From a bacterium (GTDB lineage Bacteria; Patescibacteriota; Minisyncoccia; UBA6257; JAGOQP01): 64,000 nucleotides of DNA. A model generated the notes under the pieces. That model was not told the origin of the DNA. It searched no databases and worked only from the letters and a program-made list of their open reading frames with translations. How positions within the stretch are numbered: position 1 is the stretch's first letter; every line of letters starts with the position of its first letter. Shown piece by piece: positions 2,521 to 53,200 of this stretch. The DNA is taken from positions 1,364 to 65,363 of the forward strand of contig JAKAHY010000005.1 in the NCBI GenBank assembly GCA_021814695.1, in the 5' to 3' direction. The translations under genes and the position numbers were made by a program.

Positions 2521-4371
2521 TTATTGCTGCTGTTCCGTGGTTCCCGCAGCTCCCGCAGCTCCTTCATCTCCCTTATTGTACATCGATTGGCCTATTTTTT
2601 GAAGTTCTCCTGATAATTCGGATGAGGCCGCCTTCATTCTGTCGGCATCATTGTGGGCAATTGCATCTTTGAGCTCCGAGGTCTTTTGTTCAATAGAGGC
2701 TTTTACATCTGGAGTAATTTTATCTTTCCATTCGGTAAGGTTCTTTTCCGCAAGATATACCAGCTGTTCGGCATTGTTCCTGAGTTCGGCGGATTCTTTT
2801 TTCTTTTTATCTTCTTCGGCATGAACTGCAGCTTCCTGTTTTAGGCGCTCAATTTCGTCCTTGGAAAGTTGGGTTGATGCTTCAATTCTTACCGACTGGA
2901 CTTTTCCGGAGGCTTTATCTTTGGCGGAAACGCTTAAAATTCCGTTGGCATCAATATCGAATGCGACTTCAACCTGAGGAACTCCTCTTGGGGCCGGTGG
3001 AATTCCGTCAAGAATAAATCTGGCAAGGGTTTTATTATCCGCTGCCATAGGACGCTCTCCCTGAAGAACATGAATTTCAACCGATGTTTGGTTATCGGCT
3101 GCAGTCGAAAAGACTTGAGACTTTGACGTCGGAACGGTTGTATTTTTTTCTATAACCGGAGTAAATACGCTTCCGTAAGTTTCTATTCCCAGTGAAAGCG
3201 GGGTCACATCCAAAAGCAAAACGTCTTTAACATCGCCCTGGAAAATACCGGCTTGAACGGCGGCACCGATCGCAACTACTTCGTCAGGGTTAATTCCCCT
3301 GTGAGGGTCTTTGCCAAAAAGCTTTTTGACCGCTTCCTGAATGGCCGGCATTCTGGTCTGACCGCCAACGAGAATAACTTCGTTAATATCCGATATTTTC
3401 AGACCCGCTTCACTGATAGTTTGTTTAACAAGTTCTATAGAATGGTCAATCATATCCTGAACCAAGCCCTCAAGTTTGGCTCGCGTCATTTTAATCAGAA
3501 AATGTTTTGGGCCTGAAGCATCCGAGCTTATGTAAGGTAAATTAATTTCTGTTTCGGTAACGGTAGACAATTCGTGCTTGGCTCTTTCCGCGGCCTCTCT
3601 TAATCTTTGCAACGCGAGAGGATCCTTTGACAGGTCAACGCCATCGCTTTTTTTATATTCGGCAACCAAATAATCCATTATTCTCTTGTCAAAATCATCA
3701 CCGCCAAGATGGGTATCGCCTCCGGTACTTTTGACTTCAACAACGTCATCTCCAATTTCAAGAACGGAAATATCGAAAGTTCCCCCTCCGAAATCGTAAA
3801 CACAAATTTTTTCGTTTTTCTGCTTATTTAATCCGTAAGCCAATGCTGCCGCCGTCGGTTCATTAATTATTCTACGGACTTTAAGGCCGGCGATTTCTCC
3901 GGCATTTTTTGTTGCCTGCCTTTGTGAGTCGTCAAAATAAGCCGGAACAGTTATGACCGCTTCTTCTATTTTTTCTCCCGTCTTCGCTTCGGCATCGGCC
4001 TTAAGTTTGGCCAATACCATTGCCGAGATTTCTTCAGGTTTATATTCTCTATCTCCCATTTTTACCTCGACTCCCCCGGTTGAAGATTCCTTCAGTTCGT
4101 AGGGTAACCACTTTACATCCCTTTGTACTTCAACGTCACTGAATTTTCTCCCGACAAGACGCTTTACTGAAAAAATCGTATTTTTGGGATTCACAACCGC
4201 CTGACGCTTGGCAAGCATTCCGGCAAGACGCTCTCCCGATTTACTCACCGCAACCACCGACGGGGTGGTTCTTGCTCCTTCCGCGTTTTCTAAAACTTTT
4301 GGCTCTCCGCCCTCAACAATTGCCATAGCCGAATTTGTCGTCCCCAAATCTATACCTAATATTTTTGCCAT
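2521..4371 (-). CDS. dnaK: Chaperone DnaK (Hsp70)
   Basis: N-terminus [20 protein letters not shown] and full-length Hsp70 signatures. Confidence 0.95.
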
Positions 4372-13234: not shown

Positions 13235-13804
13235 TTATTTAATGTACTCACGCCAGAGAGGATCCCAATCTTTCTTGAATACCGCCAGCATAACTTCGTC
13301 CCAATATCTTCCTTTGCGAAAGTGCTGGTTTTTTCTTACCCCCTCAACCTTATAACCACAATGAAGATTGTGACCGATACTCCTTCCGTTATACGAAAGA
13401 GCCGAGGAACAAATTTTTCTTAGGTTCAGCGTACTGAAAGCGTAGTTTAACAGATTCATTTTAGCGTCGGTCCCGAAACCCTTGCCCCAGAATTCTTTTT
13501 CACCAATCAGCGCTCCGGTAAAGGCGGTGCGAGATATCCAATCTATCCGATGAAGACCCATAGTGCCGATAGGGATTTTGCTGTCTTTTATCTCAATAAC
13601 AAGAATTACATTTTTATCGTCTTTATTGGCATTTTCTATCCACTCCCTTTCCCGCTTGATTCCTGAAGGAAAGACCGCAGAAACAAAATGTCTAACTTCC
13701 GGATCATTTATCCAACGATAAAACAATTCGACGTCGGTATTAATATCGGGAGGCCTAAGAATTACTTTTTTACCAATAATGAATACTGTTTTTTGGTTTT
13801 CCAC
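13235..13804 (-). CDS. GNAT family N-acetyltransferase (RimJ/RimL-like)
   Basis: Acetyl-CoA binding motif ...GALIGEKEFWGKGFGTDA.... Confidence 0.75.
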   Translation of the reverse strand: MENQKTVFIIGKKVILRPPDINTDVELFYRWINDPEVRHFVSAVFPSGIKREREWIENANKDDKNVILVIEIKDSKIPIGTMGLHRIDWISRTAFTGALIGEKEFWGKGFGTDAKMNLLNYAFSTLNLRKICSSALSYNGRSIGHNLHCGYKVEGVRKNQHFRKGRYWDEVMLAVFKKDWDPLWREYIK

Positions 13805-14051
13805 TTTCCCCTCCTTTTTGGGTTGTTAAGGTTCAAAAACTGCTCCGGTCATCGGAGCAGTTTTTGGTTTCAAATGTCAAAAAGTATTGTTTATATATTT
13901 AAAATCAAAGATTGCTCCAATGAAAGCCGGCCTCCGTTAAGGGATGCCGGGCAAATCATATTAATTTGGAACAACCCGTGTTTATACATAATTTTATTGC
14001 TTGTATTGTACATAACGATAAACAAATCAATTTGTTTCATTTTTTGTGGCC

Positions 14052-14071
14052 CCTGCCTACCGGCAGGCAGG
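14052..14071. repeat. 20-nt GC-rich palindrome cctgcctaccggcaggcagg (copy 1)
   Basis: An identical 20-mer occurs at 28160-28179; both copies sit beside tRNA-derived fragments. Confidence 0.7.
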
Positions 14072-14088
14072 CAACACGGGGGTTCGCC

Positions 14089-14102
14089 GTTCGAATCCCG
14101 AG
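14089..14102 (+). repeat. Inverted partial copy of the tRNA-Glu T-arm
   Basis: gttcgaatcccgag on the plus strand matches the T-arm of the minus-strand tRNA-Glu, about 50 nt downstream of the tRNA 3' end. Confidence 0.55.
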
Positions 14103-14111
14103 GGCAAAAAC

Positions 14112-14140
14112 AAAACATCCCGCTTACGCGGGTATGTTTT
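14112..14140 (-). terminator. Terminator after tRNA-Glu
   Basis: Hairpin cccgcttacgcggg followed by a T-run on the minus strand. Confidence 0.5.
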
Positions 14141-14148
14141 TGTTTTTG

Positions 14149-14223
14149 TGACCCCATCGGGATTCGAACCCGAGTTTTCGCGATGAGAACGCGACGTCCT
14201 GGACCGGACTAGACGATAGGGCC
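14149..14223 (-). tRNA. tRNA-Glu (anticodon CTC)
   Basis: Reverse complement folds as a cloverleaf: acceptor GGCCCTA/TGGGGTC, anticodon loop TTCTCAT, T-arm TCGGGTTCGAATCCCGA. Confidence 0.8.
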
Positions 14224-22810: not shown

Positions 22811-25800
22811 TTATTTGTTCATCACGAACGGTTTTGCCTCAAGAACATCTTCGTCTTTCGTATTATCATTAGTGTCTTTGCGGAAGAAAATCCAGTAGAT
22901 AAGGAATAGTAAAGCGATAAACAGAATAAGATCAAATATCCAATTTCCGAGCAAAGCTCCAAACGCGGTGATAACCGTAGCTCCTAAGGCCGGACCACTG
23001 CCGACAATTGAAGTCAGGTAGGCTGAAATAGACTGGAATCTTCCCCGAACATCATTAAAGTTAAGAACCGAAGAAAAGATTACGGTATCTCCGTTAGAAA
23101 GAGAATCCGAAGCAATTCCATCAATGCTTATAGCTGATTGGAAATTAGCCGCGACCGCCCCAAGATTGTAGGAAATCCCATTAGCATCGTGATTGAAGAA
23201 AGGATAGTTGGTTGAAGAAAATTCAGTTCCCGGAGGCAAGATAACTTTCAGAAATGCGTTAGATAAGTTGTATGTGCATCCGTTACGATAAGTGATAGTC
23301 AAAACGAAATGCTGTCCCGGAGTTAACTGACTGACGTTTATCGAAGGAACAAGCATGAGACACGAGAGTCCGGTAGTGGTCGGCTGAACAATGATCGGAT
23401 TAGTGGGAGTAACCGGATTTACGATGATAGTTTGCTGTTTGGCAGTCGTAAAACTCAATATTGAACCGTAAGCTGTTCCGGAGCCGTTCTGAGCCACTGC
23501 GCGATAGTAATAAGTAGTATTCTGAGCAAGTCCCGAAACTGCGGTTGAGAGATTTGCATATGAACTTCCAGCCCCAACGGGTTGACTGACGGTTTGTGAT
23601 CCGAGACTCATAGTTGTCCCGTATTCAAACCAACCGTTGGCAGAATTGCCATTGGGATTTACCTGCCCGTTAAGCAATGCCGACGTTTGATAAATATACG
23701 ATGCCTGATTGGTTATGACCAAAGGCGTAACGTTGTAGTTATTATTTCCTCCGGTAGAAAAACTCAATATCTGGCCGTAAGTCGTTCCGGAATCGTTTCT
23801 GGCTGCTGCGCGATAATAATAGGTAGTCCCTTGAGACAATCCTGAAACAGATTGATTGAAGTACTGGGTTCCGCTGTATGAACCGATGCTCTGCGAAAAA
23901 GTAGTGTTACCAAGATAGTTATAGTTGGTTCCATACTCAAACCAGGCGTAAGTATTTCCACCATTGGGGTTTACCTGACCATAAAGTGTAGCTGAATTGT
24001 AGGAGACGTTAGAGCTGTTGGTCTGAACATAAGGAGTGCTTCCGTTATAGCAGTTATTTCCATAACATCCGCCTCCGTTGTTTGTAGAGAAACTAAGAAT
24101 TGATCCGTAAGCGGTTCCGGCGCTATTTTGGGCGACAACCCGGTAATAATAAGTCGTGTTGTAGTTGAGTCCGGATATATAAGTAGAGACATTGATTGAG
24201 CTGTTGTTGGAACCGGCCGACTGATAGGAAGTCATGTTCCCTAAGTTAGTCGAAGCTCCATACTCAAACCAGTAGTTGGTGGAACAATTGTTCGGATTTA
24301 CCTGTCCGTTAAGTTGAGCCGAATTCTGATAAACATTTCCGACACTCAAAGACGAGGCCATCGGAGACGAACACGATCCTCCACTGCCTCCATTGGTTGT
24401 AAAGCTTAAAATTGAACCCTGAGAAGTTCCGTAGGAATTCTGAGCAACAATCCTGTAGTAATAAGTGGTGTTAGAAGAAAGATTTGATAAGCTTGCCGAA
24501 TAAGGTTGAGCGCTATTTCCGGAACCGGCTGATTGAAATCCGGTGGAATTACCCAAAGACTGGGAAGTTCCGTATTCAAACCAATATGATGTTGAAGCGC
24601 TGTTAGGATTTACGGTACCGGTTATCTGAGCCGAAGATTGAGAAAGATTATTCGTTCCGCCGGTAACCACAATAGGAGTATTTCCTCCTCCGCCTCCGCC
24701 ATTAGCAGTTGTGAAACTAAGAACTGATCCCTGGGTAGTTCCGTAAGAATTCTGGGCGACTACTCTAAAATAATAAGTAGTGTTAGCCGACAATCCCGTT
24801 ACACCAGCCAAAACATTTTGATTTGAAGTTCCGTTTCCGGCCGATTGAGCCGAAGTCGTATTACCCAAAGACTGGGAGGTCCCGTATTCGAACCAATATG
24901 ATGTTGAAGCGCTGTTGGGATTTACCGAACCATTAAGAGTCGCCGAAGTCTGAGAAACGTCGGAGGCTGAATTGGTAATCGCCAAAGGAGCCGATCCTTG
25001 ATGTGTCTGGCTGATTTGAACAGTAACGCTATCGGTTGCCAAACCGCTTGAATTGCTGCAAGAAATAGAATAGGTGGTCAAACTATAAATAGCTCCGGTT
25101 AAAACCGATCCCGAAGTTGCCCCTCCGGTAGAAAAATTACCTCCGGTAGCATGACATTCGGTGGCATTGGTCGAACTCCAATTTAAAGTTGAGGAACCGC
25201 CACTGGTTACAGTTGTCGGGTTAGCAGAGATATTAGCCGTCGGATATTGTGCGGGCGGATTACTTACACTAACAGTAACGCTATCGGTTGCCGAACCGCT
25301 TGAATTGCTGCAAGAAATAGAATAGGTGGTTGAGCTATAAAGGACTCCGGTTGAAGCAGATCCGGATGTCGCTCCTCCGGTAGAAAAATTACCTCTGGTA
25401 GCATGACATTCGGTGGCATTATTTGAACTCCATTGAATCGTAGATGAATTTCCGGAACCTATAATTGTCGGGTAGGCGGAAATATTCGCCGTCGGTTGTG
25501 AAACCGGAGGCGGATTGTTTATCACGCTTACGGTTGCATTAGCCTGAATGGAACCACCCGAAGAATTTGTACATTGAATTGAAAAAGTTGTGGTGCCAGC
25601 CAACGGAGAAACCTGGTCTTGTCCCTGGGTCGCGTTACTGGTAGAAAAACCGGCTCCGGCCAAAGCATGACATTCGGTGGCGTTGGTTGATGTCCAGTGC
25701 AGATAAGGAGCTGTTCCTAACGAAACCTGAGTTACGGCAGTGCCGTTGGGATACTCTGCCCAAAGATTAGCCGTGGGTTGCTGTTGCTGAATCGATTGTC

Positions 25801-26287
25801 CGGTAATGCTATAAAGTCCGGTTGTATAATATTCGATATTCCCGCTGCCCGGTAAAACATCCCCTACCCCGCCAAAACTGGCGCTCATGGGAGAAAGAGA
25901 GATGGTGTATCCCGGAGCTGCATAAATATCTACAGATTGCGAAATTGATGGCGCGTTTTGAGCCCAAATTGTTCCGGTTACTCTGATGTGATTACCGTCA
26001 CCGGTAGCGCTATAACTGGATTTGGCATCAATAGCGGTAACCGAAGAATTGTTTAAAAAGGTGAATTCGAAAGCAACCTGATCTCCAGGCTTCATATTAG
26101 TAAGCGATGTCGTCCAGTTGTATGTTCCGGCATATGCGTGATTTCCAACCGTAAACATTCCGGATTGAGAAAATGACGCTTGACCGGCAGCCAATGCAAA
26201 AGAAGGCACGAGCGAAGCCGCTACGCCTATAACTACGACCAAAATTGATGATATTTTGAATAATTTATTCATTTTAGAATTAGGCAT
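22811..26287 (-). CDS. Giant cell-surface protein with fibronectin-III-like repeats
   Basis: 1158 aa. Signal peptide; three Cys-containing about 50-aa repeats (NATECHA...SISC.NSSG); six or more about 100-aa repeats (YWFEYGTSQSLGN...TTYYFRVVAQNSYGT...LSFTT); C-terminal TM helix with a short charged tail. Confidence 0.8.
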   Translation of the reverse strand: MPNSKMNKLFKISSILVVVIGVAASLVPSFALAAGQASFSQSGMFTVGNHAYAGTYNWTTSLTNMKPGDQVAFEFTFLNNSSVTAIDAKSSYSATGDGNHIRVTGTIWAQNAPSISQSVDIYAAPGYTISLSPMSASFGGVGDVLPGSGNIEYYTTGLYSITGQSIQQQQPTANLWAEYPNGTAVTQVSLGTAPYLHWTSTNATECHALAGAGFSTSNATQGQDQVSPLAGTTTFSIQCTNSSGGSIQANATVSVINNPPPVSQPTANISAYPTIIGSGNSSTIQWSSNNATECHATRGNFSTGGATSGSASTGVLYSSTTYSISCSNSSGSATDSVTVSVSNPPAQYPTANISANPTTVTSGGSSTLNWSSTNATECHATGGNFSTGGATSGSVLTGAIYSLTTYSISCSNSSGLATDSVTVQISQTHQGSAPLAITNSASDVSQTSATLNGSVNPNSASTSYWFEYGTSQSLGNTTSAQSAGNGTSNQNVLAGVTGLSANTTYYFRVVAQNSYGTTQGSVLSFTTANGGGGGGNTPIVVTGGTNNLSQSSAQITGTVNPNSASTSYWFEYGTSQSLGNSTGFQSAGSGNSAQPYSASLSNLSSNTTYYYRIVAQNSYGTSQGSILSFTTNGGSGGSCSSPMASSLSVGNVYQNSAQLNGQVNPNNCSTNYWFEYGASTNLGNMTSYQSAGSNNSSINVSTYISGLNYNTTYYYRVVAQNSAGTAYGSILSFSTNNGGGCYGNNCYNGSTPYVQTNSSNVSYNSATLYGQVNPNGGNTYAWFEYGTNYNYLGNTTFSQSIGSYSGTQYFNQSVSGLSQGTTYYYRAAARNDSGTTYGQILSFSTGGNNNYNVTPLVITNQASYIYQTSALLNGQVNPNGNSANGWFEYGTTMSLGSQTVSQPVGAGSSYANLSTAVSGLAQNTTYYYRAVAQNGSGTAYGSILSFTTAKQQTIIVNPVTPTNPIIVQPTTTGLSCLMLVPSINVSQLTPGQHFVLTITYRNGCTYNLSNAFLKVILPPGTEFSSTNYPFFNHDANGISYNLGAVAANFQSAISIDGIASDSLSNGDTVIFSSVLNFNDVRGRFQSISAYLTSIVGSGPALGATVITAFGALLGNWIFDLILFIALLFLIYWIFFRKDTNDNTKDEDVLEAKPFVMNK

Positions 26288-26409
26288 ATTTTATCACAAC
26301 ATACGATAAAAGTCAATACATATGACTATTAGGGTTGCGTGTAATTGAAACATACAGCAATAGCGCCAATAATCAAGATCTTATCATTTTAAGAGCCTCA
26401 AAATCATAT

Positions 26410-26452
26410 TTTGAAAACCTTAAAATAACGGGGTGCCTTTGGGGGCACCCGC
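26410..26452 (-). terminator. GC-rich terminator after the 26476-27300 gene
   Basis: Hairpin gggtgcctttgggggcaccc followed by a T-run on the minus strand. Confidence 0.5.
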
Positions 26453-26475
26453 ATCAAATGTTCTAAAAGTGCGAT

Positions 26476-27300
26476 TTAAGGAATCGTCGATCCTGGACGG
26501 ACCGCCTCGGAATGGCCGCTTCCTCCTGACACACCTTCGACGATGGCTCCGGCGACAATTAGCCCCACCGTTGCCCAAAGCACGTTGTGGTTGTTGATGT
26601 CGATGTATACTCGACCCATAACACTTCCGCCCAGGCCGGTACACTCGAAGATGTACGTCTCGTCATGCTTGAGATGCGGAGTGAGAAACTCCCCCGATGT
26701 TTTGCTGTCCGTGTTCAGACCCACACCGCCAAGAGCGTGGCACTCAGAGGTGAACTGCGAATCCCACAGGATTCTGACCTGGGATCCTCGCTTCACCTTC
26801 ATGCCTGCGACATCCTGGCCGATCCACGTTGCTTGAAGCGACAGGGTCGGCTTGGGTGCCGTCCTTGGAACCCCAACGACTTGCGCCGGTTGAGGTACGG
26901 TCGGAGGTGGCGGTGGCGCGGTCGCCTCGTAGCATTGGATGCCGATCGCCCTGGATGTATCCAGGTCGATCGCGGGGATAAATCCGTTTCCACACTGCCA
27001 CAGCACGAGATGTGTCCTGGCGGGAATCACCTTCCCGTTAAACTCAGCGGGAAAAATGATCGGCGTCAGAGGCGCAAGAGACTTGCTCCCCTTGAAGCCA
27101 AAACGCGTTTGCATCAGCCCAGGGACAGGGGCGTCCCACTTGGCCATACACTCCCCCTGCCGAACCGTTCTGTCCGGCTCGATTGGGTCGGTGCCAATGA
27201 CATAATATACATGTGGTTCGGCGGCAATCGCATAGCTGGGAACCAGCCATGCAAAGGCCAAAATGAGACAACCAAAAACAACCCACGTCGTCTTTTTCAT
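26476..27300 (-). CDS. Secreted/membrane-anchored protein encoded in a GC-rich (likely horizontally acquired) segment
   Basis: Strong RBS aaaggagagg; signal peptide MKKTTWVVFGCLILAFAWLVPSYAIAA; poly-Pro linker PPPPPTVPQP; a SECHA-containing domain related to the repeats of the adjacent giant protein; C-terminal hydrophobic segment. GC content is visibly much higher than the surrounding genome. Confidence 0.6.
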   Translation of the reverse strand: MKKTTWVVFGCLILAFAWLVPSYAIAAEPHVYYVIGTDPIEPDRTVRQGECMAKWDAPVPGLMQTRFGFKGSKSLAPLTPIIFPAEFNGKVIPARTHLVLWQCGNGFIPAIDLDTSRAIGIQCYEATAPPPPPTVPQPAQVVGVPRTAPKPTLSLQATWIGQDVAGMKVKRGSQVRILWDSQFTSECHALGGVGLNTDSKTSGEFLTPHLKHDETYIFECTGLGGSVMGRVYIDINNHNVLWATVGLIVAGAIVEGVSGGSGHSEAVRPGSTIP

Positions 27301-27425
27301 CGTCCTCTCCTTTCGTTTTCTAACAGCTTTTTAGATATTATCACAAAATAGTACTTATGTCAATAAAAAGTTGCCAAAAACCCAGCTATTTATCAAATAA
27401 ATGTTCGTTCACAAAATTTATTTCA

Positions 27426-28085
27426 TCAGCCCGCTATCAGGGGAACAAAAGAAAATCCATGAAATGCCCTTTCTTCAAAATCATTCTTTTCTGTTTTATC
27501 CAGAACAACAATGCTCTCCCCCAGCGGAGCGACAATTCTTCCTCCAATAATAAGCTGGTCCTTCCAAGACTCGGGAATCTTATCCGCAGAAGCAGCTGCA
27601 ATAATCTTGTCGAAAGGAGCTTCGGTTTCATACCCCTTTGTGCCATCAAAATTTATAATCTTTGCCACCTCTCTTTCGACAAACCCGTATTTGGAAAGAT
27701 TGTTTATTGCCATCTGAGCAAGAGAATCGATACGCTCGAGAGAGATAACTCCATAGCGTCCATCTTTGTCTTCGGTAATTCCTCCGGGATGTTCAATCAT
27801 TTTGGCAATCAGTGCCGTCTGCCAACCGGAACCCGAGCCAATCTCCATAACCTTATCCCCCGCCCGCAAATCCAGGAGCTCGAGCATAAAGGCAACCGTC
27901 AGCGGTTGAGAAATAGTTTGTCCGTTTCCTATTGAAAGAGGCTCATTATGATATGCAAACTCCGCCAAAGAAGGCGGAACAAAGTCTTTGCGGTCAATCG
28001 CGTTAAAAGCATCTATAAGCAGCTGGGATTTAAGATATCCCAACTCGGTAAGTTCTTTTACAAGCTCGGAGTTTGAATAGGCCAT
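27426..28085 (-). CDS. pcm: Protein-L-isoaspartate O-methyltransferase
   Basis: SQPLTVAFMLELL and VMEIGSGSGWQTALIA motifs. Confidence 0.85.
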   Translation of the reverse strand: MAYSNSELVKELTELGYLKSQLLIDAFNAIDRKDFVPPSLAEFAYHNEPLSIGNGQTISQPLTVAFMLELLDLRAGDKVMEIGSGSGWQTALIAKMIEHPGGITEDKDGRYGVISLERIDSLAQMAINNLSKYGFVEREVAKIINFDGTKGYETEAPFDKIIAAASADKIPESWKDQLIIGGRIVAPLGESIVVLDKTEKNDFEERAFHGFSFVPLIAG

Positions 28086-28150: not shown

Positions 28151-28230
28151 GGGGTCATACCTGCCTACCGGCAGGCAGGGTTCAAGAGCTCATTGGTAGA
28201 ATTGCTTCGTCTTCATTAACATTATTAATA
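28151..28230 (+). pseudogene. Degenerate duplicate of the tRNA-Trp 5' half, interrupted by the 20-nt palindrome
   Basis: ggggtcata[cctgcctaccggcaggcagg]gttcaa[gagctcat]tggtagaattgc parallels the start of the downstream tRNA-Trp (ggggtcatagttcaatggtagaattgc). Confidence 0.55.
28160..28179. repeat. 20-nt GC-rich palindrome cctgcctaccggcaggcagg (copy 2)
   Basis: Identical to 14052-14071. Confidence 0.7.
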
Positions 28231-28231
28231 T

Positions 28232-28305
28232 GGGGTCATAGTTCAATGGTAGAATTGCGGTCTCCAAAACCGCTGATCTAGGTTCGAATCCTAGTGACCC
28301 CGCCA
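28232..28305 (+). tRNA. tRNA-Trp (anticodon CCA), 3' CCA encoded
   Basis: GGGGTCATAGTTCAATGGTAGAATTGCGGTCTCCAAAACCGCTGATCTAGGTTCGAATCCTAGTGACCCCGCCA. Confidence 0.85.
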
Positions 28306-28483: not shown

Positions 28484-28516
28484 AAAAATAGAGCTTAATT
28501 TTAAGCTCTTTTTAAT
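28484..28516. terminator. Bidirectional terminator hairpin
   Basis: agagcttaattttaagctct flanked by A/T runs, between the tRNA-Trp locus and the convergent 28512-28895 gene. Confidence 0.5.
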
Positions 28517-28895
28517 TCGATCTCTTAAGTTCCGGAGCGAAATAAAGCATCGTCTTCTTCTTATGGCAGATAGGACAGATATATTCGACCTCATATTTAA
28601 AAACGTGCTTATCGTACCAACCTTCGCGAGCCTTGACCCATTTCGTCTCCTCTCCGCTTACCAGCTGCGGCCCAATAACGGCAATCACTTTACCCTGCAT
28701 ACGGTAAGTTTTTCCAAAATTGCATTGCCTTTTTTCGAAAGCCCTGACATCATCCCCGATGTTGAATTTCTGAACTTCGCAACCTTTGGATTCGCATCTT
28801 AATGCGGCAGATTCCGTTCTGTGCTTTTTACCACAAATCTCACACAAAAAACGGACAATGGTCCTGGAAGGGACTGTTCTCTCCACTCTTTTCAC
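28512..28895 (-). CDS. Zinc-ribbon protein (hypothetical)
   Basis: 127 aa; CEICGKK...C.SKGC and CPICHKK motifs. Confidence 0.4.
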   Translation of the reverse strand: MKRVERTVPSRTIVRFLCEICGKKHRTESAALRCESKGCEVQKFNIGDDVRAFEKRQCNFGKTYRMQGKVIAVIGPQLVSGEETKWVKAREGWYDKHVFKYEVEYICPICHKKKTMLYFAPELKRSN

Positions 28896-29983: not shown

Positions 29984-30000
29984 ATTTTTTTATTTATGTG

Positions 30001-30074
30001 AGCCAATGGCCGGAATTGAACCGGCGACCTACTCCTTACCATGGAGTTGCTCTACCAGCTGAGCTACATTGGCC
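30001..30074 (-). tRNA. tRNA-Thr (anticodon GGT)
   Basis: rc GGCCAATGTAGCTCAGCTGGTAGAGCAACTCCATGGTAAGGAGTAGGTCGCCGGTTCAATTCCGGCCATTGGCT. Confidence 0.75.
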
Positions 30075-30120
30075 TGGATCACAGACATTATCCTAACGAA
30101 AACCAACATAACTTTCAAGC

Positions 30121-30196
30121 TGGAGCCACCTCCCGGATTCGGACCGGGGACCTTCACTTTACAAAAGTGTTGCTCTACCAGCTGAGCTAAGGTGGC
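30121..30196 (-). tRNA. tRNA-Thr (anticodon TGT), CCA encoded
   Basis: rc GCCACCTTAGCTCAGCTGGTAGAGCAACACTTTTGTAAAGTGAAGGTCCCCGGTCCGAATCCGGGAGGTGGCTCCA. The T-loop reads TCCGAAT (C at position 55). Confidence 0.7.
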
Positions 30197-30209
30197 ACGA
30201 TTCGAAATG

Positions 30210-30294
30210 TGGGCAGGGTGAGAGTCGAACTCACGCGGGCACATTGGCCAACGGTTTTACAGACCGCCCTCGGCCCCTACGAGACTACCTGCCC
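30210..30294 (-). tRNA. tRNA-Tyr (anticodon GTA), long variable arm
   Basis: rc GGGCAGGTAGTCTCG...GGTCTGTAAAACC...GTGAGTTCGACTCTCACCCTGCCCA. Confidence 0.75.
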
Positions 30295-52833: not shown

Positions 52834-53200
52834 GCCGCGGTAGCTCAGTGGTAGAGCGCATCCCTAAACTCTTTGGGGCTTTTCCGAGTAATCGGGATTG
52901 AAAAATCGGGTGAAATCGGTGGAAATCTCTAAATAAATTTTATTTTTAGACAATACCGAGCCAATCCTTCGCTAAAGCTTCGGATTGCAAGCAAGCTGTA
53001 TCTAAATTTTGCATAGAATAGAAAGTTTGCCTGCCGTAGCCTTCAGCGTAGGCAGGTGTAGAGACTATCCTTTATGGAGTACTCCGGCGGTTCCGCCAGA
53101 GGAAGCGCCCGATCCCCGCCTTTTGGTGGGGAATGATATAGTCCAAAACTCTTAGTCATGGAAGAGGATGGCGTCGGGGGTTCAATTCCCTCCCGCGGCA
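52834..53200 (+). tRNA. tRNA-Phe (anticodon GAA) interrupted by a group I intron between positions 33 and 34
   Basis: 5' exon GCCGCGGTAGCTCAGTGGTAGAGCGCATCCCT (52834-52865). 3' exon GAAGAGGATGGCGTCGGGGGTTCAATTCCCTCCCGCGGCA (53161-53200). Spliced loop CTGAAGA; acceptor GCCGCGG/CCGCGGC. Confidence 0.7.
52866..53160 (+). ncRNA. Group I self-splicing intron (295 nt) in the tRNA-Phe anticodon loop
   Basis: 5' exon ends in U paired to the intron GGGG (P1 CCCU/GGGG with a U-G pair); the intron ends in G (omega-G, 53160). R-like element AGAGACTA (about 53059-53067) and S-like GATATAGTCC (53135-53144) can form P7. Candidate cctgcc/ggcagg helix at 53032-53058. Confidence 0.65.

What the first reader, a model, noticed from the sequence alone, without database searches (positions are those of the whole stretch)
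26400..27310. Compositionally anomalous GC-rich gene for a secreted protein inserted next to the giant surface-protein gene
Across 26420-27300 the sequence is visibly much more GC-rich than everything around it, with codons dominated by GCC, CGG and GGC and long ORFs open in several frames. This is the hallmark of recent acquisition from a high-GC donor. The encoded 274-aa protein has a signal peptide, a PPPPPTVPQPAQV linker and a Cys-containing domain (SQFTSECHALGGVGL...IFECTG) that is related to the NATECHA...SISC repeats of the neighbouring native 1158-aa protein. This suggests either domain capture or a shared surface-display role. Its terminator hairpin is also GC-rich.
Basis: seen in the sequence. 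Interest (0 to 1): 0.6.

Follow-up and report, generated by a model that had tools for sequence, protein, structure and literature searches.

The report
Anciently GC-rich, hairpin-packed surface-protein gene
The GC-rich gene is real, but it is not a recent import: it is an old resident surface-protein gene that has stayed 10-25 GC points above its AT-rich genome in every related lineage found, and its coding sequence is packed with stable hairpins, which probably explains the composition.

Summary
Observation confirmed. CDS 26476-27300 (-) is 57% GC (GC3 0.64) in a 41.6% GC window (z=5.9), with its own promoter, RBS and terminator. It is not a chimera: four contigs (two NCBI MAGs, two Logan run assemblies) match 100% across both junctions.

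"Recent acquisition from a high-GC donor" is not supported. Ten related lineages carry a homologue. Where flanks exist (seven loci) it sits right after PCMT, in five of them followed by a giant-protein gene. Every copy is GC-rich (0.47-0.59 against 0.35-0.43), although synonymous sites are saturated between lineages and PCMT's GC3 tracks each genome. No high-GC, phage or plasmid homologue exists.

New finding: in all 11 lineages the CDS folds far better than chance (z -3 to -20; median -6.6 when protein and codon usage are kept). Seventeen control genes give -3.1 to +1.8 across both nulls. The fold is a row of local hairpins whose positions turn over.

The product is a type-I membrane protein with two Ig-like domains. 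Its C-domain is related to the neighbour's repeats.

Best explanation: selection for pervasive base pairing, probably in the mRNA, maintains the GC content. The purpose of the hairpins is unknown.

The parts
26476..27300 (-). CDS of the GC-rich gene (274 aa plus stop). The whole coding region is hairpin-dense, with about 68% of nucleotides paired in the MFE fold.
   Evidence: ORF. Composition. Protein-level conservation with third-position divergence. Fold z=-3.4 (dinucleotide shuffles) and -4.1 (synonymous-codon permutation), with 0 of 60 shuffles reaching the observed energy. Fold z=-6.4 with UTRs included.
27220..27300 (-). Signal peptide (aa 1-27, MKKTTWVVFGCLILAFAWLVPSYAIAA). The first ~45 nt of the CDS are AT-rich (GC 0.42).
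   Evidence: Read from the sequence. AlphaFold helix at residues 2-19. GC of the first 45 nt against the rest of the CDS. The cleavage site is inferred, not predicted with a dedicated tool.
26926..27213 (-). N-terminal beta-sandwich ectodomain (aa ~30-125; type A motif DPIEPDR..GEC..CGNGF..LDT; conserved Cys51/103/123).
   Evidence: pLDDT 85-96. Tandem Ig-fold matches in PDB. Family alignment.
26854..26925 (-). Pro-rich disordered linker (aa 126-149).
   Evidence: pLDDT below 50 at residues 129-143. Sequence.
26590..26853 (-). Ig-like C-domain (aa 150-237; W..S..ECHAL...ETYxFECTGxGG), homologous to repeats in the neighbouring giant protein.
   Evidence: BLASTP 30-33% identity, E=2e-10, to three repeats. 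The same domain is found in hundreds of multi-repeat proteins. pLDDT 88-96.
26479..26583 (-). C-terminal membrane-anchor helix (aa ~240-257) and Gly-rich tail ending VRPGSTIP (family consensus GGGxH..VRxGPTIP).
   Evidence: AlphaFold helix at residues 240-253 with a disordered tail. W242, G246, T272, I273 and P274 are invariant in the 5-sequence alignment; only W242 stays invariant across 12 sequences. No known sorting-signal model matches.
27335..27363 (-). Own sigma-70-type promoter: TTGACA, 17 nt, TAATAT, with an upstream TG.
   Evidence: 10 of 12 matches. It resembles the promoter of the giant gene (repeat D1).
27304..27314 (-). Shine-Dalgarno region (AAAGGAGAGG) 6-7 nt before the ATG.
   Evidence: Sequence. 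Every orthologue with an assembled 5' UTR has an AAGGAGG-like motif.
26421..26450 (-). Intrinsic terminator: GGGTGCC-CCCAAA-GGCACCC followed by a T-run.
22811..26287 (-). Downstream neighbour: 1158-aa surface protein with three copies of the same Ig-like domain plus Fn3/PhoD_N-like repeats. Native composition (GC3 0.41) and no folding excess, so it serves as an internal control.
   Evidence: Fold z=-0.3 and -0.6 against dinucleotide shuffles for two 825-nt segments. Promoter at 26316..26288.
27426..28085 (-). Upstream neighbour: PCMT (protein-L-isoaspartate O-methyltransferase). It is the conserved anchor of the locus. Native composition and no folding excess.
   Evidence: Pfam PF01135, E=3.6e-53. 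Synteny. Fold z=-0.5.

Best explanation
WHAT IT IS. This is a native, long-resident and fast-evolving gene of an uncultured small-genome bacterial lineage. It encodes a type-I membrane-anchored surface protein: signal peptide, two Ig-like beta-sandwich domains joined by a Pro-rich linker, one transmembrane helix, and a short conserved tail.

WHY IT IS GC-RICH. The GC-richness is not a decaying trace of horizontal transfer. It is an actively maintained property of the coding sequence and is coupled to an unusually dense row of stable local hairpins along the whole CDS. Stable helices in an AT-rich genome need G and C, as in tRNA and rRNA genes. Selection for pervasive base pairing would therefore hold the gene 10-25 GC points above the genome while individual hairpins come and go.

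WHICH MOLECULE. The base-paired molecule is most likely the mRNA. A hairpin-saturated transcript would resist single-strand-specific RNases and/or slow the ribosome during export.

SHOWN: the anomaly, its age and conservation, the folding excess, and the turnover of hairpin positions. INFERRED: that selection on structure causes the GC content, that the relevant molecule is RNA, and what the structure is for.
For: 1. AGE AND RESIDENCE. The identical locus was recovered on 13 contigs, and four contigs (two NCBI MAGs, two Logan assemblies of separate runs) are 100% identical to the window across both junctions. Homologues occur in 10 further lineages. PCMT is followed by the gene in all 7 loci with flanks, and by a giant-protein gene in 5 of them. 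The promoter, SD and terminator look native.

2. ANOMALY CONSERVED PAST SATURATION. Gene GC is 0.47-0.59 and GC3 0.44-0.72, against locus GC 0.35-0.43. Fourfold-site identity in the gene is at the random expectation for nearly all pairs. It is near random in PCMT and EF-Ts for the deep pairs (0.28-0.34 against 0.26). PCMT GC3 follows the genome (0.42 down to 0.31) while the gene does not. A passive excess would have decayed to about a quarter or less per lineage. That would require an impossible starting GC3 above 1.

3. FOLDING EXCESS IN ALL 11 LINEAGES. z is -2.9 to -20 against dinucleotide shuffles and -1.1 to -13 against synonymous-codon permutation. Seventeen control genes range from -3.1 to +1.8 across the two nulls. 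Mann-Whitney p=6e-6 and 2.6e-5. The built-in tool confirms this: window z=-6.4, L009 z=-12.3, PCMT z=-0.5. The adjacent giant gene encodes the same domain type with native GC3 and no excess.

4. ANATOMY. The fold is many 12-30 bp local hairpins, with about 70% of bases paired. They are not copies of a repeat family.

5. RNA-STRAND HINTS. G rather than C is enriched at sense-strand fourfold sites (0.35-0.40 against 0.21) in most lineages. The sense strand is more stable than the antisense in 10 of 11 lineages and has greater excess stability (p=0.027/0.032). The first ~45 nt of the CDS stay AT-rich.

6. PRINCIPLE. GC-rich segments in AT-rich genomes mark structured RNAs (PMC6429828). A probably non-functional rRNA copy in an AT-rich genome has lost GC (PMC4370689).
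Against: - All structure evidence is thermodynamic prediction. No probing or expression data exist.
- The excess persists with G-U pairs forbidden (z -1.9 to -17) and with DNA parameters (z=-8.9 for L009). A DNA-level role is therefore not excluded.
- Hairpin positions are poorly conserved beyond the closest pair: 30% of pairs are shared for win-L001 and 0-11% for deeper pairs. The RNAalifold covariation term is unfavourable. There is therefore no classical covariation support.
- Synonymous sites evolve faster, not slower, than in flanking genes.
- The GC3 contrast between stems and loops is barely larger than in permuted sequences (p=0.07).
- Translation-initiation regions are not detectably more open than in controls.
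- Parsimony-polarised changes lean GC>AT (49 against 21), which hints at some net decay, although the method is biased in that direction.
- L003 is weak under the codon-permutation null (z=-1.1), and L012 has GC3 of only 0.44.
- No reason is known why this gene alone should need such a transcript.
Confidence: 0.5

Rival explanations
1. DNA-level hairpins at a hyper-recombining or hypermutable contingency locus. Quasi-palindromes in the DNA of a diversifying surface-antigen gene promote intrastrand template switching and/or frequent allelic recombination. GC-biased gene conversion, or preferential survival of stable GC-rich palindromes, then raises the GC content. On this view the hairpins are a cause or by-product of diversification, not an mRNA feature.
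For: - The folding excess survives forbidding G-U pairs and using DNA parameters, and the antisense strand also shows z of -2.2 to -13.
- Hairpin positions turn over quickly.
- Synonymous sites diverge faster than in flanking genes (p=0.007 and 0.03).
- The protein evolves fast and is modular or mosaic: N-domain types A and B do not follow PCMT relatedness, the Ig domain is present or absent, and L011 combines an L008-like signal peptide with a window-like N-domain.
- In L015 a 30-bp hairpin pairs the conserved ETYxxECTG codons with a strand whose amino acids depart from the family consensus.
Against: - The enrichment is asymmetric (G over C on the sense strand), and the sense strand folds better than the antisense. 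Neither symmetric gene conversion nor cruciforms predict this.
- In the window gene many stems depend on G-U pairs, and only one Watson-Crick inverted repeat was detected inside it, a 30-nt palindrome at CDS 329-358 with 87% complementarity.
- GC-richness stops exactly at the CDS ends and spares the first ~45 nt.
- No paralogous donor cassettes or template repeats occur within 64 kb, and there are no G4 motifs.
- Known bacterial gene-conversion effects on GC3 are a few points, not 20-35 (own knowledge).
Confidence: 0.22
2. Ancient horizontal acquisition from a very high-GC donor before these lineages diverged, with unusually slow or incomplete amelioration. On this view the hairpin excess is incidental.
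For: - The amino-acid composition is also GC-shifted: GARP 0.31 against host 0.22, and FYMINK 0.21 against 0.31.
- Polarised substitutions lean GC>AT (49 against 21).
- Some members are less GC-rich: L012 has GC3 0.44, and L015 and L019 have 0.55-0.57. That could be read as different stages of decay.
- The N-domain has no recognisable relatives outside the family.
Against: - Synonymous sites are saturated within the gene and near-saturated in flanking genes, yet the excess is still +0.2 to +0.37 in GC3. Back-extrapolation requires a starting GC3 above 1.
- The lowest-GC genome (L008, 0.35) has the highest gene GC3 (0.72).
- This does not explain a folding excess that is robust to composition and codon usage in all 11 lineages.
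- The Ig-like domain belongs to a family abundant in the same kind of genomes and in the adjacent gene.
- No high-GC homologue was found among 1.84 billion representatives.
Confidence: 0.1
3. Recent acquisition from a high-GC donor, or repeated independent imports from a GC-rich mobile reservoir into the same slot.
For: The atypical composition and codon usage are the classical signature of such an event. A 31-nt imperfect direct repeat flanks the gene.
Against: - The gene is present at the same locus in every relative with assembled flanks, at up to saturated divergence.
- The flanking repeat is two sigma-70-like promoters.
- There is no integrase, and the tRNA-Trp lies beyond native-composition PCMT.
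- No phage, plasmid, viral or high-GC homologues were found.
Confidence: 0.03
4. The GC-rich block is really a large structured non-coding RNA (or an assembly chimera), and the ORF is fortuitous.
For: GC-rich, strongly folding segments in AT-rich genomes are usually structured RNAs (PMC6429828). For L009 the centroid fold almost equals the MFE.
Against: - The protein signal is clear: the ORF is intact in 11 lineages, amino acids are conserved while third positions diverge, and Cys and Trp residues are invariant.
- The C-domain is homologous to hundreds of proteins (E down to 1e-29).
- AlphaFold predicts two confident domains.
- No other frame is consistently open across lineages.
- There is no Rfam match, and the structure is not positionally conserved.
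- Independent assemblies are identical across the junctions.
Confidence: 0.03

Closest known systems
Horizontally acquired 'alien' genes and the amelioration model (Lawrence and Ochman; own knowledge)
   Same: A single gene whose GC content, GC3 and codon usage differ sharply from the host genome, with sharp boundaries.
   Different: - It is present at the same locus in all relatives examined.
- The anomaly persists past synonymous saturation and does not track host GC.
- There are no mobility genes, no donor, and the expression signals are native.
GC-rich structured RNA genes in AT-rich genomes (tRNA, rRNA, and the GC-rich intergenic regions used to discover ncRNAs; PMC6429828)
   Same: Local GC enrichment that goes with strong base pairing. 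In the window, the only other comparably stable 150-nt windows are tRNA clusters, a group-I-intron-like region, and an unannotated spot at 13.8-14.2 kb.
   Different: - Here the structured segment is a translated protein-coding sequence.
- The helices are not positionally conserved and show no convincing covariation.
Genome-scale ordered RNA structure (GORS) in some positive-strand RNA viruses (own knowledge)
   Same: Pervasive folding excess throughout coding RNA, beyond what composition and codon usage give, without conservation of individual helices.
   Different: That is a property of whole viral RNA genomes. Here it is confined to one chromosomal bacterial gene, and it comes with a large GC shift.
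Borrelia vlsE / vls antigenic-variation locus (own knowledge; the two papers read for it, did not confirm it)
   Same: A surface-antigen gene that is conspicuously more GC-rich than its very AT-rich genome, as a conserved feature across species despite rapid sequence divergence.
   Different: - No silent cassettes or similar DNA occur within 64 kb.
- There is no G4 potential or strong GC skew.
- The locus is chromosomal and lies among housekeeping genes.
- The defining feature here is a row of hairpins.
Palindromic repeat elements in or near genes (Rickettsia RPE inserted in-frame; REP/BIME) (own knowledge)
   Same: GC-rich hairpin-forming sequence inside an ORF of an AT-rich genome.
   Different: - The hairpins share no sequence with one another or with anything else in the window.
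- They overlie conserved protein domains rather than forming an insertion.
Tandem Ig-fold single-pass surface receptors and adhesins, and PKD/Ig-like repeats of bacterial surface proteins
   Same: The architecture is predicted to be signal peptide, two beta-sandwich domains, a transmembrane helix and a short tail. The best PDB matches are CD4 D1-D2, titin Z1Z2, basigin and a PKD domain.
   Different: - Sequence identity is about 10% and the E-values are weak (3.5e-3 or worse).
- There is no Pfam or NCBIfam hit.
- The conserved GGGxH..VRxGPTIP tail follows the helix, unlike LPXTG, PEP-CTERM or GlyGly-CTERM signals.

Membership tests
Recently horizontally acquired gene / genomic islet | Atypical base composition and codon usage relative to the host | tested here: met
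   GC 0.572 against 0.416, z=5.9. GC3 is 0.64 against 0.44 expected with host codon usage.
Recently horizontally acquired gene / genomic islet | Patchy distribution: absent from close relatives, with an empty site | tested here: not met
   The gene follows PCMT in all 7 related loci with assembled flanks. No empty site was found.
Recently horizontally acquired gene / genomic islet | Mobility signatures (integrase or transposase, att repeats, tRNA target) | tested here: not met
   The neighbours are PCMT and a surface-protein gene. The only flanking repeat is two promoters. The tRNA-Trp is separated from the gene by native-composition PCMT.
Recently horizontally acquired gene / genomic islet | Identifiable donor-lineage homologues with matching composition | tested here: not met
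   Only low-GC family members were found in 5.8 billion and 1.84 billion protein sets. No hits were found in GTDB representatives, JGI metagenomes, phages, plasmids or viral contigs.
Recently horizontally acquired gene / genomic islet | Composition relaxing toward the host with divergence (amelioration) | tested here: not met
   The GC3 excess persists at synonymous saturation and is largest in the lowest-GC genome. Polarised counts are ambiguous.
Structured non-coding RNA family | Match to a curated RNA family | tested here: not met
   There is no Rfam hit at gathering threshold or at E<=1.
Structured non-coding RNA family | Positionally conserved helices supported by covariation | tested here: not met
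   Shared pairs are 30% for the closest pair and 0-11% for deeper pairs. The RNAalifold covariation term is +12 kcal/mol.
Structured non-coding RNA family | Folding stability beyond composition | tested here: met
   z is -2.9 to -20 in 11 lineages, while controls are about 0.
Ig-like / PKD-like surface-protein domain | Beta-sandwich fold and homology to known repeat-containing surface proteins | tested here: met
   BLASTP E=2e-10 to the neighbour's repeats. Profile hits were found in hundreds of multi-repeat proteins. The AlphaFold beta-sandwich has pLDDT 88-96, and Foldseek gives Ig/PKD matches with probability 0.9-1.0. There is no Pfam model hit.
Known C-terminal sorting-signal proteins (LPXTG, PEP-CTERM, GlyGly-CTERM and others) | Signature motif preceding the transmembrane helix plus a basic tail, matching a curated model | tested here: not met
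   There is no NCBIfam match. Here the conserved motif follows the helix.
vls-like gene-conversion antigenic variation locus | Nearby array of silent donor cassettes similar to the expressed gene | tested here: not met
   No similar DNA occurs in the remaining 63 kb of the window. Only the window could be searched, not the whole genome.
vls-like gene-conversion antigenic variation locus | G-run / G4 potential and strong GC skew | tested here: not met
   No canonical G4 motif occurs in any of the 11 genes. GC skew across the gene is about 0 to -0.1.
Diversity-generating retroelement target | Template repeat and reverse transcriptase near the variable region | tested here: not met
   No repeat of any gene segment occurs in the window. 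No reverse-transcriptase domain was listed among the neighbours in the precomputed Pfam annotations. The window's distant ORFs were not all scanned.
Dispersed palindromic repeat elements (REP / RPE) | Multiple similar copies dispersed in the genome | tested here: not met
   There are no direct self-hits among the hairpins, and no hits elsewhere in the window beyond chance 12-mers.

The most novel reading that the evidence does not exclude
A previously undescribed class of bacterial gene: a 'hairpin-saturated' coding sequence in which pervasive nucleic-acid structure, not horizontal transfer, sets the gene's base composition over deep evolutionary time. The most novel version is that the quasi-palindromes act as built-in templates for intrastrand template-switch mutagenesis or recombination. 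That would continuously rewrite a host-contact surface protein, giving a contingency locus with no repeats, cassettes or reverse transcriptase. Alternatively, the transcript doubles as a very stable structural RNA.
Probability: 0.2. Interest if true: 0.85.

Novelty: new variant of a known kind. Interest (0 to 1): 0.62.

Why it matters
1. METHOD. Atypical GC in a single gene is routinely read as recent horizontal transfer. Here the same signature is ancient, vertically stable and apparently maintained. Composition-based HGT calls can therefore be wrong in a systematic way.

2. BIOLOGY. If structure really holds a protein-coding gene 15-25 GC points above its genome, this is an extreme and experimentally tractable case of selection on synonymous sites and mRNA or DNA structure in bacteria.

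3. HOST INTERACTION. The gene encodes a rapidly diversifying, modular Ig-fold surface protein next to a giant surface protein in an uncultured small-genome lineage. That makes it a plausible cell-contact molecule, so whatever the hairpins do (transcript longevity, translation pacing or diversification) may bear on how these organisms interact with their surroundings.

Tried and rejected
- GTDB-representative and JGI metagenome scans with the 3-sequence profile found nothing. The family was reached instead through the PCMT anchor and the exhaustive profile search.
The 3-sequence scan was negative.
- The polarised AT>GC against GC>AT count is confounded by parsimony bias at saturation and is not used as decisive.
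- Openness of the translation-initiation region is no different from controls, so the test is uninformative.
- The stem-versus-loop GC3 contrast is only marginally above permuted sequences (p=0.07) and is inconclusive.
- G-quadruplex scan: none found.
- Overlapping or antisense gene: the 254-aa antisense ORF in the window is not conserved in other lineages, and no frame is consistently open. Rejected.
- Attachment-site reading of the 31-nt flanking repeat: rejected, because both copies are promoter hexamers with correct spacing.
- REP/RPE-like element and DGR template repeat: rejected.
- Taxonomic identification failed. Cluster look-ups give no organism names, the related MAG records are titled only 'bacterium', and MAG identifiers were not found in the literature. 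'CPR/Patescibacteria-like' is therefore an inference from gene content and was not tested.
- The AlphaFold-database fold library was unavailable.
- Papers consulted for the Borrelia vls comparison did not contain the relevant statement. That comparison rests on my own knowledge.
Full report
**1. Observation**

The minus-strand ORF 26476-27300 (274 aa) is 57.2% GC, against a window mean of 41.6%. For 825-bp windows the sd is 2.6 points, so z=5.9, and the highest-ranking windows all overlap this gene. GC1/GC2/GC3 are 0.59/0.49/0.64. The 35 host ORFs of 150 aa or more used as the codon reference have GC3 0.34-0.47. With host codon usage this protein would have GC3 0.44.

The shift favours ACG, CTG, AAG, GAG, ATC, AAC and GAC, and avoids ATA and TTA.

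Long ORFs in other frames, the PPPPP linker, the Cys-containing domain and a GC-rich terminator hairpin (26450..26431 plus a T-run) are all present.

The gene has its own near-consensus promoter (TTGACA, 17 nt, TAATAT, with upstream TG, at 27363..27335) and a strong Shine-Dalgarno sequence.

**2. Not an assembly artefact**

The exact protein is carried on 13 contigs. Two NCBI MAG contigs and two Logan assemblies of separate sequencing runs are 100% identical to the window over 1464-1900 bp covering both junctions between AT-rich and GC-rich sequence.

**3. Not a recent import**

Only two close relatives exist among 5.8 billion proteins, at 65-70% and 57-58% identity.
- One lies in a syntenic contig: S2, EF-Ts, PCMT, the gene, then the giant protein.
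- The other lies between a PCMT 3' end and a giant-protein 5' end.

Using PCMT as an anchor in GTDB representatives, plus an exhaustive profile search of 1.84 billion representatives, I recovered further members. In every locus with enough flank (L001, L003, L008, L009, L011, L018, L019) the gene directly follows PCMT. In five of them a giant-protein gene follows. L019 then continues with a 706-aa ORF before L10/L12.

All ten homologues are GC-rich relative to their loci. Gene GC is 0.47-0.59 and GC3 0.44-0.72, against 0.35-0.43 for the rest of each locus.

These lineages are deeply diverged.
- PCMT is 56-88% identical between them.
- Fourfold-degenerate sites in PCMT and EF-Ts are near random identity for the deep pairs (0.28-0.34 against 0.26 expected).
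- Within the GC-rich gene they are at random identity for almost all pairs.
- PCMT GC3 tracks genome GC (0.42 down to 0.31-0.35), while the gene does not. The lowest-GC genome (L008, 0.35) has the highest gene GC3 (0.72).

If the excess were a passive relic, the residual site memory of about 5% per pair implies that each lineage keeps about a quarter or less of its initial excess. Today's excess of +0.2 to +0.37 would then need a starting GC3 above 1. This step is an inference from a two-state relaxation model.

There is no integrase. The only flanking direct repeat (26288-26318 and 27335-27365) is the pair of similar promoters of this gene and the giant gene. No homologue occurs in phage, plasmid or viral collections, or in any high-GC context.

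**4. The protein**

AlphaFold with a 12-sequence family alignment gives mean pLDDT 80. It predicts:
- a signal-peptide helix;
- two confident beta-sandwich domains (about residues 30-125 and 150-237, pLDDT 85-96);
- a disordered Pro-rich linker;
- a helix at residues 240-253;
- a disordered tail.

Foldseek against the PDB returns tandem Ig-fold ectodomains and a PKD domain (CD4 D1-D2, titin Z1Z2, basigin). Probabilities are high, but E-values are weak (3.5e-3 or worse) and identity is about 10%.

The C-domain is homologous to three repeats at the N-terminus of the adjacent 1158-aa protein (30-33% identity, E=2e-10). It is also homologous to repeats in hundreds of large proteins.

Family members are modular.
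- N-domains fall into at least two divergent types (A: DPIEPDR..GEC..CGNGF; B: MCRLGVNPVDT). L018 and L015 have longer N-regions. The types do not follow PCMT relatedness.
- The Ig-like domain is absent from L009, L011 and P0016.
- L011 joins an L008-like signal peptide to a window-like N-domain.
- Most members share a Gly/Ala-rich helix followed by a Gly-rich tail ending in GPTIP or a related motif (GPPIQ, RPRI, RPPV).

No Pfam or NCBIfam model matches, including sorting-signal models.

I infer a type-I membrane-anchored, fast-evolving surface recognition or adhesion protein. Localisation and function are not shown.

**5. The unexpected feature: the coding sequence is saturated with hairpins**

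The window transcript folds with z=-6.4 against dinucleotide shuffles. The CDS alone gives z=-3.4, and z=-4.1 against permutations that keep the protein and its codon usage. None of 60 shuffles reached the observed energy under either null.

Every family member shows the effect. z is -2.9 to -20 against dinucleotide shuffles and -1.1 to -13 against synonymous permutation, with medians of -5.7 and -6.6.

Seventeen control genes give -3.1 to +1.8 across the two nulls, with medians of -0.5 and -0.7. They come from the window and the related loci. They include PCMT from five genomes and two segments of the adjacent giant gene, one of which encodes the same Ig-like domain type. Mann-Whitney p=6e-6 and 2.6e-5.

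The built-in tool reproduces this:
- L009 gives z=-12.3 over 100 shuffles, with the centroid almost equal to the MFE.
- PCMT gives z=-0.5.

The folds are rows of local 12-30 bp hairpins with short loops, and about 70% of nucleotides are paired. In a 150-nt sliding scan of the whole window, this gene supplies 9-10 of the 25 most stable windows on either strand. Most of the others are tRNA clusters, a group-I-intron-like region, or an unannotated spot at 13.8-14.2 kb.

The hairpins are not copies of a repeat family, and no Rfam family matches.

**6. What kind of structure**

Positions are only transiently conserved. The closest pair (70% nucleotide identity) shares 30% of its base pairs. Flanking genes that are more similar in sequence share 2-19%. 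All deeper pairs share 0-11%.

RNAalifold on three orthologues finds 35 doubly changed pairs but an unfavourable covariation term.

So what is maintained is hairpin density, not a particular fold. That argues against a specific ribozyme- or riboswitch-like RNA.

Synonymous sites evolve faster than in flanking genes (L008-L009: 0.31 against 0.55 identity, p=0.007; win-L001: 0.46 against 0.58, p=0.03).

**7. RNA or DNA?**

In favour of the mRNA:
- At sense-strand fourfold sites G rises from 0.21 to 0.35-0.40 in most lineages, while C changes less.
- The sense strand is more stable than the antisense in 10 of 11 lineages, and its excess over shuffles is larger (paired t p=0.027, Wilcoxon p=0.032).
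- Many stems in the window gene rely on G-U pairs. Only one Watson-Crick inverted repeat was detected inside it, a 30-nt palindrome at CDS 329-358 with 87% complementarity.
- GC-richness starts about 45 nt into the CDS and ends at the stop codon.

Against exclusivity:
- The excess survives forbidding G-U pairs (z -1.9 to -17) and using DNA parameters (z=-8.9).
- The antisense strand is also strongly structured.

Tests of initiation-region openness and of the stem-versus-loop GC3 contrast were inconclusive.

**8. Best explanation and rivals**

I conclude with high confidence that this is an old, native, vertically transmitted surface-protein gene whose GC anomaly is maintained rather than decaying.

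I conclude with moderate confidence that the maintenance is tied to pervasive base pairing. Stable helices in an AT-rich genome require G and C, which is the principle behind GC-rich tRNA, rRNA and ncRNA genes (PMC6429828). A probably non-functional rRNA copy in an AT-rich genome loses GC (PMC4370689).

I favour selection on the mRNA, for nuclease resistance or transcript longevity and/or translation pacing during export. The purpose is inferred only.

The main rival is a DNA-level role. In that reading quasi-palindromes promote template switching or recombination at a diversifying antigen locus, possibly with GC-biased conversion. It fits the fast turnover, the elevated synonymous divergence and the mosaic proteins. 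It does not fit the strand asymmetry or the confinement to the CDS.

Ancient transfer with incomplete amelioration cannot explain the persistence or the folding excess. Recent transfer, a chimera, and an ncRNA mistaken for a gene are each contradicted by several tests.

**9. Comparison with known systems**

It looks like an 'alien gene' but fails four of the five defining tests for recent HGT. It behaves like a structured RNA in composition and stability, but it is translated and lacks conserved helices.

The nearest analogues (own knowledge) are:
- pervasive unconserved structure in some viral RNA genomes (GORS);
- the conserved GC-richness of the Borrelia vls antigen locus. That locus, however, depends on silent cassettes and G-runs, which are absent here.

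I found no report of a conserved GC-rich, hairpin-dense coding gene in such bacteria.

**10. Verdict**

- Observation: confirmed.
The protein features and domain relationship hold. Recent acquisition does not.
- Novelty: a new variant of known kinds (selection on coding-sequence structure; GC-rich structured elements in AT-rich genomes).
- Caveat: the evidence is entirely computational.

Noticed in passing
window 52856-53192 (+): There is a full-length match to the group I intron model RF00028 (48.3 bits against a gathering score of 50, E=5.8e-11). It is followed immediately by a short match to the 3' end of tmRNA (RF00023 positions 346-363, E=0.0056). ARAGORN found no tmRNA in the window. This may be an intron-interrupted ssrA gene between tRNA-Arg and tRNA-Pro. 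The region is among the most stably folding in the window.
   Followed up: partly
window ~13800-14200 (both strands): This is a very stable local fold (down to about -75 kcal/mol per 150 nt, residual about -5 sd after regression on GC). It lies just upstream of and overlapping tRNA-Glu (14148-14223). There is no Rfam hit at gathering threshold.
   Followed up: no
L018 8418-8765 (-) and L019 8413-8724 (-): A second small GC-rich ORF (~100-115 aa; GC 0.57-0.59, GC3 0.71) lies between tRNA-Trp and PCMT in the two deepest lineages. It is conserved between them (33% identity, E=3e-10) and has no Pfam or NCBIfam match. It is absent from the window and the other loci. Its folding excess is only modest (z -2.3 to -3.7).
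   Followed up: partly
window 26288-26318 and 27335-27365: A 31-nt imperfect direct repeat (74% identity) brackets the GC-rich gene. On the minus strand both copies read as sigma-70 promoters with an upstream TG, one for the giant gene and one for the GC-rich gene.
   Followed up: yes
window 28187-28205 against 28240-28258: A 19-nt sequence 89% identical to the D-arm region of tRNA-Trp lies 53 nt upstream of that tRNA, between it and the PCMT start. It may be a decayed tRNA fragment.
   Followed up: no
window 28512-28895 (-): This Cys-rich zinc-ribbon-like 127-aa protein evolves unusually fast. It is 52% identical between the window and L001, whereas neighbouring genes are 76-96% identical. 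It has only weak zinc-finger Pfam hits.
   Followed up: no
L001 2532-3272 (+): A low-GC (0.32) 246-aa ORF with weak HTH_7/HTH_23/HTH_28 hits overlaps the 3' end of tRNA-Tyr (2482-2567) and ends just before tRNA-Thr (3280-3353) in L001. It has no counterpart in the window's tRNA cluster (30000-30294). It may be a transposase or resolvase-like insertion.
   Followed up: no
L019 9773-10609 (+): The database gene call for the L019 family member (202 aa, P0015) is truncated. The GC-rich region and an intact ORF with a signal peptide extend upstream to a TTG start, giving 278 aa.
   Followed up: yes
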